DNA from: a virus
Lineage: Duplodnaviria > Heunggongvirae > Uroviricota > Caudoviricetes
Strand: one strand, 5' to 3'
Virus record (IMG/VR): IMGVR_UViG_3300028965_000008
Span: 1-10,386 of that record
DNA length: 10,386 bases
In this document: positions 4,376 to 10,386 of the stretch, piece after piece
Numbering within the stretch: the first letter of the stretch is position 1
Layout: the number at the start of each line of letters is the position of its first letter
Program-made: the position numbers and the translations under genes
The notes under the pieces: model-generated
What the model was told of the DNA's origin: nothing
Seen by the model: only the letters and a program-made list of their open reading frames with translations
The model's database searches: none

Positions 4376-4594
4376 ATGGTCACATTATTCAGAAAAAAAT
4401 ATCCACGAAAGAGTAGAACAACAGAATTTCTGTTTCTCATTCTGTTTATCGTGTTGATGATACCGATATCCCCGCTAATTTTTGTCTGGGCAATCGGGAA
4501 AATAATTGAGCCAGTTATTGAATTGTATAACGACGTGGTGTGGGCGTCGTTCAACACACTGCACAATAAAATTAACCCGTATAAGGAAAGCTGA
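4376..4594 (+). CDS. Small predicted membrane protein, 72 aa
   Basis: Hydrophobic stretch FLFLILFIVLMIPISPLIFVWAIG; lies in an AT-rich segment; its stop at 4592-4594 sits directly before the HNH gene ATG at 4596 (translational coupling). A minus-strand ORF (4288..4602) overlaps it, so strand assignment is not certain. Confidence 0.45.
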   Translation: MVTLFRKKYPRKSRTTEFLFLILFIVLMIPISPLIFVWAIGKIIEPVIELYNDVVWASFNTLHNKINPYKES

Positions 4595-4595
4595 T

Positions 4596-4961
4596 ATGGC
4601 ACTGACGAAAAAGCAACGTGCAGAACTGCGCATGAAGTTCGGTGGTCGCTGTGCTTATTGCGGCTGCGAACTTGGCGAAAAGTGGCATGCAGACCATGTA
4701 AAACCGGTCATTCGTTTTGATGGAAATATGCTTCACCAGGAACGTGACGGTATATCCAACATGGTTCCGGCATGCCACCCATGCAATCTGCACAAGCATT
4801 GCAGTAGCCTGGAAGATTATCGGCGAATTATCAGTGATGGTCGTCGTGAATTCCTTGCGTCCGGGAAAGGCAAAGCGCTGGTTCGTATGGGATTGGTTGA
4901 AATGAAACCTGACCCGGTTGTGTTCTGGTTTGAAAAATATCAAGAAGGGGCTACAGCATGA
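4596..4961 (+). CDS. HNH endonuclease, 121 aa
   Basis: MALTKKQRAELRMKFGGRCAYCGCEL...HADHVKPV...NMVPACHPCNLHK carries the HNH signature (CxxC, H-N-H, CxxC); SD AAGGAAAG 5 nt before the ATG at 4596. Confidence 0.8.
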   Translation: MALTKKQRAELRMKFGGRCAYCGCELGEKWHADHVKPVIRFDGNMLHQERDGISNMVPACHPCNLHKHCSSLEDYRRIISDGRREFLASGKGKALVRMGLVEMKPDPVVFWFEKYQEGATA

Positions 4962-6292: not shown

Positions 6293-6772
6293 ATGGCTGA
6301 GATTGTTGAAGGAGTGCATTACCTTACGGTTGATGATCTTGTTGAAATCAATCGTTCCCTAATTGAATTACAGACGCCAGATGAGCCCGTTGGTGTTCTG
6401 AGTCCAGATAGCTTAAGTTCTTCTCAGGCCCGTCCCAGCATGGTTCGATGGTATGAACAGACTAATGACATGTTTGTACTGGTATCGGTATTGATTGAAA
6501 GTCTGATTCAGAATCATCCGTTTGCTAATGCGAACAAACGAACAGCTATGATGGCTGGTTACGTCTTCTTGTTGTTGAATGGCTATGAGTTAACAGCACC
6601 AGGCGATGAAATCGTGGAAATGGCAGAGGGACTGGCCTGCAAAACCTATACTCGAGAAGATCTCGAGAACTGGTTGTGTTATTGGTCTCGTGCGTATGAC
6701 AGCCGGGAATTATGTAAAACAGGCGCAACTATTGTTTTGTATGAAACTATCAAGCTTAAAATAGAACAGTAA
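6293..6772 (+). CDS. Doc (death-on-curing) / Fic-fold family toxin
   Basis: HPFANANKRTAMMAGYVFLLLNGYEL matches the Doc signature HxFx(D/N)(A/G)NKR and resembles P1 Doc (HIFNDANKRTAL...FLRRNG). Start is ATG 6293 or the in-frame TTG at 6284. Confidence 0.8.
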   Translation: MAEIVEGVHYLTVDDLVEINRSLIELQTPDEPVGVLSPDSLSSSQARPSMVRWYEQTNDMFVLVSVLIESLIQNHPFANANKRTAMMAGYVFLLLNGYELTAPGDEIVEMAEGLACKTYTREDLENWLCYWSRAYDSRELCKTGATIVLYETIKLKIEQ

Positions 6773-6792
6773 AACTAAAGGTGCTTCTAATG

Positions 6793-6816
6793 AAAACCCG
6801 CTTCGGCGGGTTTTTT
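6793..6816 (+). terminator. Rho-independent terminator
   Basis: GC stem CCCGC (6797-6801) / GCGGG (6806-6810), flanked by A and T runs, with a UUCG tetraloop and a T6 tract at 6811-6816; lies 21 nt after the Doc stop. Confidence 0.75.
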
Positions 6817-7007
6817 GTTGTTTATCTTCGGTGAGCTTGATGCATCTGGTTGTACTGATGTGGCTGTCTGATTTTGTTATTCAGGTGGCTTATTGCTGTT
6901 GATTGGTATGTCTTCACGGCTAGAATCGAGGCTCTTAAGTAGCGCGCAGGGAGAAGAGGGATGGACCCCGAACAGGGGAGTGCTATTTATCTGGAAGGAT
7001 TCTGTTG

Positions 7008-8677: not shown

Positions 8678-9052
8678 ATGCGTATAGAGTTTGTTTTGCC
8701 TTACCCGCCAACGGTGAACACCTACTGGCGACGTCGTGGCAGCACATATTTTGTATCAAAAACCGGTGAGCGTTATCGCCGGGATGTGGCACTTATTGTT
8801 CGCCAGCAGCAACTGAAATTAAACCTGTCCGGAAGGCTGGCGATAAAGATTATTGCAGAGCCACCGGATAAGCGCCGTCGTGACCTGGACAATATTCTGA
8901 AAGCACCACTGGATGCGCTGACGCATGCGGGACTGCTTATCGACGACGAGCAGTTTGATGAAATCAATATTGTGCGCGGTCAGGTCGTTCCCGGTGGGCG
9001 GTTGGGCGTGAAAATTTACGAAATAATGCATGACGGGCAGGTCAAAAAATGA
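8678..9052 (+). CDS. rusA: RusA Holliday-junction resolvase
   Basis: LPYPPTVNTYWRRRG...DKRRRDLDNILKAPLDALTHAGLLIDDEQ resembles E. coli RusA (LPWPPSNNRYYRH...[27 protein letters not shown]); SD AAGAGG. Confidence 0.85.
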   Translation: MRIEFVLPYPPTVNTYWRRRGSTYFVSKTGERYRRDVALIVRQQQLKLNLSGRLAIKIIAEPPDKRRRDLDNILKAPLDALTHAGLLIDDEQFDEINIVRGQVVPGGRLGVKIYEIMHDGQVKK

Positions 9053-9870
9053 AGCTGGAAGATTTACCGAAATACTATTCCCCGAAATCGCCTGGCCTGA
9101 CCGATGCGTCCGCCTCGACATCAAAAGATGCGCTGAGCATCACTGATGTGATGGCTGCGCAGGGTATGACACAAAACCGGGCTGAGATGGGGTTTTCTGC
9201 GTTCCTGGGGAAAATGGGCATTAGTATGAATGACAGGGCGCGGGCAACAGAATTACTGGCAGATTATGCATTAAGTCAGTGCGATCGCGTGGCGGCGTTA
9301 AGAAAGCTTCCGGCAGAAATAAAACCGGCAGTGATGCACATTATGGCCTCGTATGCCTTTGAGGATTATGCCCGCAGCGCAGCGAGTAAAAAGCGATGCC
9401 CTTGTTGCCGAGGGGAAAAATTTATTGAAAGCGAGGTTTTTACAAACAAGGTCCAGTATCCGGATGGTAAGCCGCCAGTATGGGCAAAGTGTACAAAAGG
9501 CGTGTATCCGTCTTACTGGGAAGAATGGAAAAAAATCCGGGAGGTGGTGAAAGTTTCCTGTCCTGAATGTAAAGGGAAGGGGGAGATTTCGACTGCCTGT
9601 AAAGATTGCCGTGGGCGTGGTGTTGCCATTCATCGTGAAGAATCAGAAAAACGGGGTATGCCTGTTATCAGGGACTGCCGGCGTTGTGGCGGTCGTGGCT
9701 ATGAAAGATTACCGTCAACGGAGGCATTTAATGCCATATGTGGGGTGACAAATCAGATAACACGCGCGTCATGGGAAAAAACGGTTAAGCAATTCTATGA
9801 CACGCTGGTGGTTCGGTTTGACATTGAAGAGGCATGGGCGGAGCGACAGTTAAAAAAGGTAACCAGATAA
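9049..9870 (+). CDS. Q-like late-gene antitermination protein, 273 aa, with CxxCxGxG zinc-finger repeats
   Basis: ATG overlaps the rusA stop (ATGA). Position immediately upstream of a late-promoter/terminator pair. Cys-rich repeats CPCCRGEK, CPECKGKG, CKDCRGRG, CRRCGGRG. Confidence 0.7.
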   Translation: MKLEDLPKYYSPKSPGLTDASASTSKDALSITDVMAAQGMTQNRAEMGFSAFLGKMGISMNDRARATELLADYALSQCDRVAALRKLPAEIKPAVMHIMASYAFEDYARSAASKKRCPCCRGEKFIESEVFTNKVQYPDGKPPVWAKCTKGVYPSYWEEWKKIREVVKVSCPECKGKGEISTACKDCRGRGVAIHREESEKRGMPVIRDCRRCGGRGYERLPSTEAFNAICGVTNQITRASWEKTVKQFYDTLVVRFDIEEAWAERQLKKVTR

Positions 9871-9875
9871 CAAGG

Positions 9876-9903
9876 TTGATTTTTCCGGAATCTGTGGTAA
9901 ATT
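9876..9903 (+). promoter_or_regulatory. PR'-like late promoter (probable Q-utilisation region)
   Basis: -35 TTGATT at 9876-9881, a 16-nt spacer, -10 TAAATT at 9898-9903 (the lambda PR' -10 is also TAAATT, from memory); 6 bp after the Q stop. Confidence 0.5.
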
Positions 9904-9951
9904 CGCCCTAACGATGGGCGTTTTGTGCCTGGCGTTAGAAGAATCTTTACA

Positions 9952-9975
9952 GCCCGCCATCGAGCGGGTTTTTTA
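9952..9975 (+). terminator. tR'-like intrinsic terminator
   Basis: Stem CCCGC (9953-9957) / GCGGG (9964-9968), loop CATCGA, then T6 at 9969-9974; about 50-70 nt downstream of the predicted late promoter. Confidence 0.7.
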
Positions 9976-10095
9976 TGCCTGGAAAATGGTGCAGAACATC
10001 AAACGCTCTGGTGGTTGCAAATACTGGTCTTTCGGCTTGCATTTTTGTAAAGCGATATATACTTATCTTACAATCAGTAATGTCAGGTAAGTTGA

Positions 10096-10386
10096 TATGA
10101 ATGAAGCCTGTTCTGTTGTTTTTGTTCATTCCCCGTTTGTTGTGCTCTTTGAAGGAAAAGAGCTCTCTCTGGAAAGTGGTAGTGCACTTCTTGTCAGGGG
10201 GGGAGCTGGATCGTTATTGCCCTTTTCGGAATGTTTTCGGCGAATAAGTCTCAGTGAATCAACAATTATCCGTTACCTGTTGTGTGGAGACGAAAAACAG
10301 GATGTAGTTTTAGTCCGGCAAATACCACGATATCTTTGCGTGAGTTTTCCCAAGGCAGAATTGATGGGCATCCTGATTGATTATCT
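10096..10386 (+). CDS. AraC-family transcriptional regulator, YdeO/AppY-like N-terminal part (partial; continues beyond the window)
   Basis: ATG at 10096 with SD AGGTAAG. MNEACSVVFVHSPFVVLF...STIIRYLLC resembles the N-termini of YdeO (MSLVCSVIFIHHAF...NTIKKYLQC) and AppY (MDYVCSVVFICQSF) as recalled. The ORF is open to the end of the window. Confidence 0.6.

What the first reader, a model, noticed from the sequence alone, without database searches (positions are those of the whole stretch)
9871..10386. AraC-family (YdeO/AppY-like) regulator as a moron directly downstream of the Q-dependent late promoter
The Q gene is followed by a PR'-like promoter (-10 TAAATT) and a tR'-like terminator. Instead of lysis genes, the next ORF is an AraC-family regulator whose N-terminus resembles YdeO and AppY, which are regulators of acid resistance and anaerobic genes. 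This is the same position that Stx phages use for stx, so the gene is placed for Q-dependent, induction-coupled expression and may also have its own promoter (TTGCAT…TATACT around 10036-10062). A prophage-borne regulator here could rewire host acid-resistance or virulence regulons.
Basis: partly seen in the sequence, partly recalled or inferred. Interest (0 to 1): 0.55.

Follow-up and report, generated by a model that had tools for sequence, protein, structure and literature searches.

The report
Prophage AraC regulator gene after Q
The window ends in the first 96 codons of a prophage-borne AraC-type regulator gene, an uncharacterised cousin of the known E. coli acid-resistance regulators YdeO, PatE and PsrB. 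It sits as a self-contained add-on gene between the phage late-gene switch (Q) and the lysis genes, which is real and tidy but a known kind of arrangement.

Summary
Window 9049-9870 encodes a lambda-family Q antiterminator. It is followed by a lambda-type late promoter (TTGATT-16-TAAATT, then AACGATGGG six bases later, as in lambda PR') and an intrinsic terminator (9951-9974).

An ORF starts at ATG 10097 and runs off the window end. Its 96 codons are identical to the start of a 247-aa protein in E. coli STEC308. That protein has the AraC-type double helix-turn-helix domain and aligns end to end with YdeO, PatE, PsrB and AppY (28-38% identity).

It is a distinct, rare subfamily, found in 65 of 5,426 complete E. 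coli genomes, and it is under purifying selection (dN/dS 0.32).

In 43 of 45 viral contigs the gene lies just downstream of a Q gene of one of five or six Q types, and in 40 of 45 it lies upstream of lysis genes.

It carries its own 3' terminator and lower G+C. A 34-nt upstream core (TTGCAT-15-TATACT) is invariant among alleles whose coding DNA has diverged 11-18%. These are the marks of a moron cassette with a private promoter that Q-modified polymerase would also read through.

The Psr regulators of EHEC occupy the same slot, so this is a new member of a known kind. Target genes are inferred, not shown.

The parts
9049..9870 (+). Q antiterminator gene (273 aa, lambda-Q family, with CxxCxGxG zinc-finger repeats)
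   Evidence: Pfam Antiterm 1.1e-53. PHROG 127 'anti-termination protein Q-like' 2.9e-111. 31% identical to lambda Q, E 1e-38.
9876..9903 (+). PR'-type late promoter: -35 TTGATT (9876-9881), 16-nt spacer with TG at 9895-9896, -10 TAAATT (9898-9903)
   Evidence: Read from the sequence. It has the same -10 as lambda PR'. It is conserved behind the same Q type in CP-933N/Sp6, O103 and PSJ-22 prophages.
9910..9918 (+). AACGATGGG, the -10-like sigma70 pause-inducing element at the predicted +1 to +9 (the Q-loading site)
   Evidence: Identical sequence and identical 6-nt distance from the -10 as in lambda. Chance expectation is 0.01 per window. The role of the element is taken from established knowledge of lambda PR'.
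9951..9974 (+). tR'-like intrinsic terminator (7-bp G+C-rich stem, 6-nt loop, T6). It predicts a short leader RNA of about 65 nt (9910-9974) in lysogens.
   Evidence: Terminator scan and RNA fold. A hairpin plus T-run sits at this position in all 7 alleles, with a different stem sequence in L024.
9977..10040 (+). Conserved post-terminator linker, also present in prophages that carry other cargo here. It marks the mosaic junction where the regulator-specific DNA begins (about 10041).
   Evidence: Alignments A2 and A6. blastn end-points fall at 9977 and 10040, and there is a 78-nt match in the PsrB locus.
10036..10069 (+). Invariant 34-nt core CTTGCATTTTTGTAAAGCGATATATACTTATCTT: probable private promoter (TTGCAT 10037-10042, 15-nt spacer, TATACT 10058-10063), possibly with an operator
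   Evidence: Identical in alleles whose CDS is 81.5-88.7% identical. In L024, all 15 differences in the 91 upstream nt avoid the core. A related box, AAAGYG...TATACTT, lies upstream of patE and of another post-Q paralogue. Promoter activity was not tested.
10084..10090 (+). Shine-Dalgarno-like AGGTAAG, 7-13 nt before the start codon. It includes the in-frame TAA (10088-10090) that fixes the start.
   Evidence: Read from the sequence.
10097..10386 (+). 5' part (96 codons plus 2 bases) of a 247-aa AraC/XylS regulator of the YdeO/PatE/Psr/AppY family. This is the N-terminal regulatory domain; the window ends before the DNA-binding domain.
   Evidence: Translation. 100% amino-acid identity to STEC308 WP_235384692.1 residues 1-96. 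YdeO model E 1.5e-5 for the fragment and 3.9e-43 for the full length.

Best explanation
Positions 9871-10386 are the leader of the late operon of a lambdoid (Qin/Rac-like) prophage. A compact moron cassette has been inserted into that leader. The cassette encodes a 247-aa AraC/XylS regulator from a new, rare subfamily of the YdeO/PatE/PsrA-B/AppY group.

Two modes of expression are expected:

1. In the lysogen, PR' fires constitutively but RNA polymerase stops at tR' (9951-9974), giving a leader RNA of about 65 nt. The regulator is then made, if at all, from its own promoter in the invariant core (TTGCAT-15-TATACT, 10037-10063). Its transcript ends at its own terminator about 25 nt past the stop codon, as seen in relatives.
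2. After induction, Q loads onto polymerase paused at AACGAT (9910-9915). The modified polymerase reads through tR', the regulator gene and its terminator into the holin/endolysin genes. The regulator is therefore co-expressed with late genes, as stx2 is.

The protein most likely acts as its characterised relatives do. It would bind AT-rich sites through two helix-turn-helix motifs whose recognition helices are nearly identical to those of YdeO, PatE and PsrB, and activate host acid-fitness-island promoters such as gadE and hdeA.

Shown here: gene identity, family, position, cassette boundaries, terminators, constraint on the upstream core, and purifying selection.

Inferred: promoter activity, Q read-through in this particular prophage, and the target regulon.
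For: Identity of the protein
- The full-length homologue has HTH_18 and HTH_AraC.
- It aligns collinearly with YdeO (36%), PatE (36-38%), probable PsrB (36%) and AppY (28-30%), and shares the N-terminal MxxxCSV motif.
- It matches PHROG 1450 over its full length.
- In the AF2 model the C-terminal domain superposes on the GadX DNA-binding domain (TM 0.91, rmsd 0.9 A). The whole chain aligns to Rns/CsvR/ToxT at E 2e-12.
- dN/dS is 0.32.

Late-promoter anatomy
- It matches lambda in its -10 and in the sequence and spacing of the pause element.

Position
- The same gene (>=99% identical) lies behind Antiterm-273, ydfT-250, DUF1133 and Phage_antitermQ-127 types of Q, and in front of holins.
- Among IMG/VR loci, 43 of 45 are post-Q and 40 of 45 are pre-lysis.
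- Related prophages with the same Q and PR' carry other cargo in this slot.

Cassette features
- A 3' terminator is found in STEC308 and A2.
- G+C is 39-44%, against 48-53% in the flanks.
- The upstream core is invariant.

Function of relatives
- PatE and PsrB activate gadE and hdeA, and PsrA/B repress T3SS through GadE/YhiF (PMC10877973, PMC8565820).
- AppY directly targets gadE (PMC10057817).
- PR' is constitutive and terminated at tR' in lysogens; stx1 additionally has its own promoter (PMC7547250).
Against: - The window stops at codon 96, so the DNA-binding domain of this particular copy is not seen.
- The candidate private promoter has a poor 15-nt spacer, and the consensus scan did not call it. 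The one promoter that scan did call (TTGTAA-18-TACAAT, 10045-10074) is not conserved in other alleles.
- The conserved core could be an operator or an RNA element rather than a promoter.
- Identity to every characterised regulator is only 28-38% (18-30% in the N-terminal domain). It falls far below the YdeO equivalog cut-off (148 against 348 bits), so target specificity may differ.
- Whether this prophage is inducible and its Q is active is unknown.
Confidence: 0.72

Rival explanations
1. The gene is a pure late-operon passenger with no promoter of its own. It is transcribed only by Q-modified polymerase from PR' during lytic growth, and its product serves the phage in the dying cell, for example by adjusting host physiology or lysis timing.
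For: The gene is on the same strand only 120 nt after tR'. The consensus promoter scan finds no more sites than chance. The TTGCAT/TATACT spacing is 15 nt. The gene always lies between Q and the lysis genes, whatever the Q type.
Against: The gene has its own intrinsic terminator directly after the stop codon, which a mere passenger would not need. A 34-nt upstream core is invariant while the coding DNA diverges up to 18%. The characterised relatives PatE, PsrA/B and AppY act in lysogens (PMC10877973, PMC10057817).
Confidence: 0.15
2. The regulator mainly controls phage genes, such as the late or lysis region or neighbouring cargo like the DNA methyltransferase, in response to an environmental ligand, rather than controlling the host acid-resistance regulon.
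For: The whole-chain fold search finds ligand-gated (fatty-acid-binding) regulators Rns, CsvR and ToxT as best matches. The N-terminal domain is the most divergent part (18-30% identity, dN/dS 0.46). The location next to the lysis cassette is fixed.
Against: The model is of low confidence in the N-terminal half (pLDDT 37-76) and TM is only 0.40. Downstream neighbours vary (methylase, tRNA, ORF-less, TerB), so there is no fixed cis target. The recognition helices SESLLKKxLKxE and SYFISVFR are almost those of YdeO and PatE.
Confidence: 0.08
3. In this genome the gene is an inert remnant of a decaying cryptic prophage, either silenced by H-NS or truncated beyond the window, and has no current function.
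For: The window ends inside the ORF. The host element resembles defective Qin/Rac-type prophages: STEC308 has a frameshifted replication gene and rearranged structural genes. The gene is AT-rich. Truncated cluster members exist (P0006-P0011).
Against: The 96 codons are intact and identical to a full-length allele. Thirty-eight complete genomes carry alleles at >=99% identity and 65 carry full-coverage matches. dN/dS of 0.32 indicates selection on the protein.
Confidence: 0.05

Closest known systems
PsrA/PsrB (prophage-encoded secretion regulators, EHEC O157:H7; Z1789/Z2104)
   Same: Both are AraC/XylS regulators of about 240 aa and are collinear over the full length. Both are prophage-borne. 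The probable psrB gene (EDL933_RS10010) lies in the same slot, downstream of a Q gene (DUF1133 type) and upstream of tRNAs, TerB, nanS and the holin. In phage phiSTEC1575-Stx2k a Psr-like gene lies between Q and stx2. The family is known to activate gadE/hdeA and to repress T3SS indirectly (PMC10877973).
   Different: Identity is only 36% (30% in the N-terminal 96 residues). Psr-type genes occur in 726 of 5,426 complete genomes, usually in two copies, against 65 of 5,426 for this subfamily. The upstream regulatory DNA differs. The hosts here are mostly bovine or porcine STEC, ETEC and environmental strains. The identification of RS10010 as PsrB rests on its position in OI-57, not on a published sequence.
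PatE (Z0321/ECs_0287, prophage CP-933H/Sp1)
   Same: It is the best-scoring characterised relative: 38% identity over 234 aa, E 8e-50, and the same length of 247 aa. It shares an upstream box, AAAGYG...TATACTT, at a similar distance from the start codon. PatE activates gadE, gadBC and hdeAB (PMC10877973).
   Different: patE lies at the right end of its prophage, after tail-fibre and invertase genes, not behind Q. The same is true of the PatE-like gene of phage mEp332.
YdeO (E. coli K-12 chromosomal regulator of the EvgAS-YdeO-GadE circuit)
   Same: The NCBIfam YdeO model aligns over residues 2-230 at E 3.9e-43, with 36% identity. The first recognition helix is nearly identical (ISESLLKKRLKEE against ISESLLKKKLKQE).
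   Different: The score of 148 bits is far below the 348-bit equivalog cut-off, so it is not YdeO. ydeO is chromosomal, next to safA and ydeP, and not in a prophage.
AppY (DLP12 cryptic prophage, K-12)
   Same: It is a prophage-encoded member of the same family and directly activates gadE and acid resistance (PMC10057817).
   Different: It is the most distant of the four: 28-30% overall and 18% in the N-terminal 96 residues. It lies at the right end of DLP12 after tail-fibre remnants. None of the 11 AppY-like viral loci has a Q gene upstream.
stx1/stx2 in Stx phages (late-leader cargo under PR'/Q/tR')
   Same: The genomic slot and expression logic are the same. PR' is constitutive, tR' stops it in lysogens, and Q read-through follows induction. 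stx1 additionally has a private promoter (PMC7547250).
   Different: The cargo is a transcription factor, not a toxin. The distance from PR' to tR' is about 65 nt here, against 258 nt in Stx phages, so the leader RNA is unrelated to StxS. There was no Rfam hit.

Membership tests
AraC/XylS family transcription factors | C-terminal DNA-binding domain of about 100 aa with two helix-turn-helix motifs (Pfam HTH_18 / HTH_AraC) | tested here: met
   Met for the full-length allele: STEC308, 99.5% DNA identity, first 96 aa identical. HTH_18 9.5e-13 and HTH_AraC 1.4e-12, both above the gathering score. GadX DNA-binding-domain superposition gives TM 0.91.
AraC/XylS family transcription factors | The DNA-binding domain is present in the copy encoded by this window | not testable with these tools
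   The window ends at codon 96 of 247, so the downstream sequence of the source genome is not available.
YdeO/PatE/Psr/AppY subfamily (PHROG 1450) | Length of about 237-253 aa, full-length collinear homology including the N-terminal domain, and the N-terminal MxxxCSV motif | tested here: met
   PHROG 1450 7.7e-55 over residues 3-233. YdeO model over residues 2-230. Alignment with YdeO, PatE, probable PsrB and AppY. The window fragment alone hits the YdeO model at 1.5e-5.
YdeO (equivalog NF007407) | Score at or above the curated 348-bit cut-off | tested here: not met
   148 bits. It is a paralogue, not YdeO.
YdeO/PatE/Psr/AppY subfamily | Activates acid-fitness-island promoters (gadE, hdeA) | not testable with these tools
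   The only evidence is inference from near-identical recognition helices and from the literature on relatives (PMC10877973, PMC10057817).
Phage moron (Hendrix/Juhala sense) | An extra gene inserted between genes that are adjacent, or differently filled, in related phages | tested here: met
   Prophages with the same Q, PR' and tR' carry TerB/DUF3927/nanS, or an OB-fold gene plus methylase plus tRNAs, in its place. The mosaic junction is at about 10041.
Phage moron (Hendrix/Juhala sense) | Own transcription terminator | tested here: met
   AGGCTCGCTGCGGCGGGCCT plus T6 lies 25 nt after the stop codon in STEC308 and is identical in A2. It lies outside the window itself.
Phage moron (Hendrix/Juhala sense) | Own promoter | tested here: inconclusive
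   TTGCAT-15-TATACT lies inside a 34-nt core that is invariant across diverged alleles. However, the spacer is sub-optimal, the consensus scan does not call it, and there are no transcript data.
Phage moron (Hendrix/Juhala sense) | Base composition different from the flanks | tested here: met
   G+C is 39-44% in the gene against 48-53% in the flanks.
Lambda-type Q / PR' / tR' late control | Q homologue directly upstream | tested here: met
   Pfam Antiterm 1.1e-53; 31% identity to lambda Q.
Lambda-type Q / PR' / tR' late control | Promoter followed by a -10-like pause-inducing element in the initially transcribed region | tested here: met
   TAAATT-6 nt-AACGATGGG, as in lambda.
Lambda-type Q / PR' / tR' late control | Intrinsic terminator between the promoter and the first late gene | tested here: met
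   9951-9974.
Lambda-type Q / PR' / tR' late control | Q binds its site between -35 and -10 and renders polymerase terminator-resistant | not testable with these tools
   This needs in vitro transcription or in vivo read-through assays.

The most novel reading that the evidence does not exclude
The terminator-linker-promoter-regulator-terminator unit is a self-contained cassette that moves between unrelated late-control systems (five or six Q types) by recombination at the conserved terminator and 65-nt linker. Its regulator has diverged from YdeO, PatE and Psr far enough, especially in the N-terminal sensor domain, to respond to a different signal or to control a different host regulon. That would make it a new lysogenic-conversion circuit in livestock-associated STEC and ETEC, whose output is additionally boosted in the induced subpopulation by Q read-through.
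Probability: 0.2. Interest if true: 0.55.

Novelty: new member of a known kind. Interest (0 to 1): 0.3.

Why it matters
Prophage-encoded AraC-like regulators (PatE, PsrA/B, AppY) are known to plug into the E. coli acid-resistance network and, in EHEC, to control type III secretion indirectly. This finding adds an uncharacterised, rare subfamily found mainly in bovine, porcine and environmental STEC and ETEC strains.

The survey here makes two points explicit. First, the slot between Q and the lysis genes, which is also the stx slot, is a preferred site for this class of regulator regardless of Q type. Second, the gene travels with a strongly constrained upstream element and its own terminator. 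That gives a concrete, testable model for dual (lysogenic and induction-coupled) expression of a host-rewiring regulator. It does not open a new class of biology.

Tried and rejected
- **Rfam:** a search of the whole window at E<=1 gave nothing in the leader. The only hits were sub-threshold terminator look-alikes at 6727-6817.
- **Scan-predicted promoter:** the consensus scan's only promoter, TTGTAA-18-TACAAT (10045-10074), was rejected as the conserved promoter. TACAAT is TGCGAC or TGTGAC in other alleles.
- **58-aa ORF and the ETEC1730 annotation:** the 58-aa ORF 9914-10090 and the 315-aa RefSeq annotation in ETEC1730, which fuses the leader to the regulator, were judged artefacts. In the window the frame is closed by TAA at 10088-10090, and it runs through the terminator.
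- **Search for PsrA:** I looked for it in Sakai Sp6 and in the EDL933 CP-933N region, where the old Z-number suggested it should be. tblastn found no AraC-like gene in Sakai Sp6, and none is annotated in either stretch.
- **Unavailable papers:** Tree 2011, Bender 2012 and Yang 2015 are not held in the library. Statements about them come from reviews.
- **Species-representative genomes:** The search for related loci found no close relative outside E. coli.
- **Phage collection, DNA level:** the search gave only a 90-nt weak match. A protein-level search was needed.
- **Structure prediction:** it gave only a modest model (pLDDT 68), so nothing is claimed about a ligand pocket.

Full report
**1. 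What is in the sequence**

Position 9049-9870 is an ORF of 273 codons. It is a Q antiterminator:
- Pfam Antiterm E 1.1e-53, with DnaJ-type CxxCxGxG zinc-finger repeats.
- PHROG 127 'anti-termination protein Q-like' 2.9e-111.
- 31% identical to lambda Q, E 1e-38.

The rest of the window is the early-right region of a lambdoid, Qin/Rac-like prophage. It holds a cI-like repressor, YdaT, a DnaT-like replication protein, P, DUF977, Ead/Ea22 and HNH. By colinearity with the STEC308 locus it also holds DUF968 and RusA.

The Q stop codon is at 9868-9870. After it come, in order:
- TTGATT (9876-9881), a 16-nt spacer that ends in TGG, then TAAATT (9898-9903).
- Six bases later, AACGATGGG (9910-9918).

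Lambda itself reads TTGACT-17-TAAATT-TGACTC-AACGATGGG at PR'. The -10 hexamer and the sequence and spacing of the downstream -10-like element are therefore the same. From established work on lambda PR', that element induces the sigma70-dependent promoter-proximal pause at which Q loads.

The composite motif occurs once in the window, against 0.01 expected by chance. It also occurs once behind each of the seven fetched lambda-family Q genes that match, lambda included; L017, whose Q is 95% identical to ETEC1730's, did not match.

An intrinsic terminator follows: stem 9951-9970, then T6 to 9974. It forms in the minimum-free-energy fold of the leader. The predicted terminated RNA is about 65 nt (9910-9974). 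Rfam has no family for it.

**2. The ORF**

ATG 10097 is preceded by an in-frame TAA (10088-10090) and by AGGTAAG, so the start is unambiguous. The frame stays open to the window end (96 codons).

A 99.5%-identical stretch in E. coli STEC308 has identical first 96 codons and continues to a 247-aa protein. That protein shows the following:
- HTH_18 (9.5e-13) and HTH_AraC (1.4e-12) at residues 158-233.
- A match to the NCBIfam YdeO model over residues 2-230 at E 3.9e-43. The score is only 148 bits against a 348-bit cut-off, so it is a paralogue, not YdeO.
- A match to PHROG 1450 over its full length.
- The window fragment alone hits the YdeO model at 1.5e-5.

Identity to characterised relatives (by tblastn, by global alignment):

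| Relative | Overall identity | N-terminal 96 residues |
|---|---|---|
| PatE (Sakai ECs_0287) | 36-38% | 18-30% (range across all four) |
| YdeO | 36% | |
| Probable PsrB (EDL933_RS10010, in OI-57) | 36% | |
| AppY | 28-30% | |

YbcM matches only in the DNA-binding domain. All four relatives share the N-terminal MxxxCSV motif. They also share almost invariant recognition helices, SESLLKKxLKxE and SYFIsvFR.

An AlphaFold model is confident only in the C-terminal domain (mean pLDDT 68). That domain superposes on the GadX DNA-binding domain at TM 0.91 and rmsd 0.9 A. The whole chain aligns to Rns, CsvR and ToxT at E 2e-12, but with TM of only 0.40.

Between the window-type and the porcine-ETEC allele, dN/dS is 0.32 overall, 0.46 for the N-terminal part and 0.26 for the C-terminal part. 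The gene is therefore a real coding gene under selection.

**3. How common it is and where it sits**

The gene is rare. It is found in 65 of 5,426 complete E. coli genomes. Thirty-eight carry alleles at >=99% identity, and 23 carry a 91-92% allele that, in the listed records, comes mostly from porcine ETEC. Sources are mostly cattle, pigs, farm environments and wildlife. No close relative was found in the species-representative genome set. The Psr-type gene, by contrast, is in 726 of 5,426 genomes, with a median of two copies.

The position is remarkably constant. The same gene lies behind:
- a 273-aa Antiterm Q (window, STEC308);
- a 250-aa ydfT-type Q, 40% identical to the first (ETEC1730);
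- a DUF1133-type Q (strain A2);
- a 127-aa Phage_antitermQ-type Q (L013-L015).

In each case it lies on the same strand, with holin and endolysin genes downstream.

In a survey of 80 IMG/VR loci, 45 encode a protein at least 74% identical:
- 43 of the 45 have a recognisable Q gene (five or six types) within 2.5 kb upstream.
- 40 of the 45 have lysis genes within 3.5 kb downstream.
- Of the 24 loci at 35-38% identity, 15 are also post-Q.
- None of the 11 AppY-like loci is post-Q.

Another paralogue (P0012, 41% identical) is post-Q as well. Prophages with the same Q, PR' and tR' carry other cargo in this slot: TerB/DUF3927/nanS-p in CP-933N/Sp6 and in O103:H2, and an OB-fold gene plus methylase plus tRNAs in PSJ-22. 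In phage phiSTEC1575-Stx2k a Psr-like gene lies between Q and tRNAs-stx2AB.

**4. Cassette anatomy**

- Homology with loci that have other Q types starts at 9948-9953, at the terminator.
- Homology with loci that lack the regulator ends at 9977 or 10040. The regulator-specific DNA therefore begins about 55 nt before the ATG.
- Directly after the stop codon there is a second intrinsic terminator. It is seen in STEC308 and is identical in A2.
- G+C is 39-44% in the gene, against 48-53% in the flanks.

The 34 nt at 10036-10069 are CTTGCATTTTTGTAAAGCGATATATACTTATCTT. They are identical in alleles whose coding DNA is only 81.5-88.7% identical. In L024, all 15 differences within the 91 upstream bases fall outside this core. 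My own rough estimate of the chance of that, (57/91)^15, is about 1e-3; no tool computed this.

A related box, AAAGYG...TATACTT, lies at a similar distance upstream of patE and of the P0012 gene. There it is accompanied by good -35 hexamers at 17-18 nt, TTGGCA and TTGGTA. That pattern was derived after the fact from the same data, so it is supportive only.

The promoter that the consensus scan reported, TTGTAA-18-TACAAT, is not conserved.

**5. Mechanism**

The best-supported model is a moron with two modes of expression.

In lysogens PR' is constitutive and is stopped at tR'. This is general lambdoid behaviour, reviewed in PMC7547250. The regulator then depends on its private promoter, which is probably weak or regulated, and its transcript ends at its own terminator.

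After induction, Q-modified polymerase reads through both terminators into the lysis genes, so the regulator is co-expressed with late genes.

The protein most likely activates host acid-fitness-island promoters, because all four characterised relatives do so and the recognition helices are nearly the same (PMC10877973, PMC8565820, PMC10057817). This last step is inference. At 28-38% identity, and with a fast-evolving N-terminal domain, the signal or the targets may differ.

**6. Comparison and verdict**

However, prophage-encoded AraC-like regulators of this family are an established class, and the probable psrB gene of EDL933 already occupies the post-Q slot.

The finding is therefore a new, uncharacterised member of a known kind. 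The points added here are:
- the consistency of the slot across Q types;
- the cassette boundaries;
- the private terminator;
- the constrained upstream core.

Interest is moderate to low.

Noticed in passing
window 9977-10040: A segment of about 65 nt just after tR' is shared with prophages that carry quite different cargo behind Q (CP-933N/Sp6, O103:H2). At 79% identity it is also shared with the PsrB locus behind a DUF1133-type Q (L009:32807-32884). It looks like a conserved linker where late-region cargo is exchanged. Its function is unknown.
   Followed up: partly
window 9904-9920: A second small hairpin, CGCCC-TAACGAT-GGGCG followed by TTTTG, overlaps the pause-inducing element. Its 5' arm lies upstream of the predicted +1, so it probably cannot form in the RNA. 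It is conserved with the promoter in related prophages.
   Followed up: no
L010:5000-5947 (ETEC1730, RefSeq WP_251706535.1): The regulator is annotated as 315 aa, starting inside the PR' leader and running through the terminator. This is probably an over-extended start call. In the window the same frame is closed by TAA at 10088-10090.
   Followed up: yes
L001:13042-14074 (STEC308): The DNA methyltransferase that follows the regulator is annotated as two overlapping CDSs, so it is probably disrupted. The first CDS is called from a start that overlaps the regulator's terminator. Other loci have no methylase here.
   Followed up: no
window 6727-6817: Sub-threshold Rfam hits to rsmX and istR (32 and 25 bits) are driven by a strong terminator, AAAACCCGCTTCGGCGGGTTTTTT, in the hokD region. 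They are most likely chance.
   Followed up: partly
window 9049-9870: This Q protein carries repeated CxxCxGxG zinc-finger motifs. It scores 32.6 bits on DnaJ_CXXCXGXG, just under the 32.7-bit cut-off, and weakly hits the anti-TRAP (RtpA) model.
   Followed up: no
L018/L019:4001-4729: A paralogue (P0014, 37% identical) lies outside any prophage, near a LysR regulator, a phenolic-acid decarboxylase and an HdeA-family gene. This hints that the link between the family and acid-stress genes also exists in non-phage islands.
   Followed up: no
window 4506-4961 and relatives: An HNH endonuclease ORF sits in the early (nin-like) region. The best whole-window relative (CEA224S) carries a Kiwa KwaB-like domain protein somewhere under its whole-window match.
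   Followed up: no
L021 (phage phiSTEC1575-Stx2k) 3501-5824: A Psr-like AraC regulator lies directly upstream of the tRNA genes and stx2AB in an Stx2k phage. The regulator and the toxin therefore share the same late leader.
   Followed up: partly
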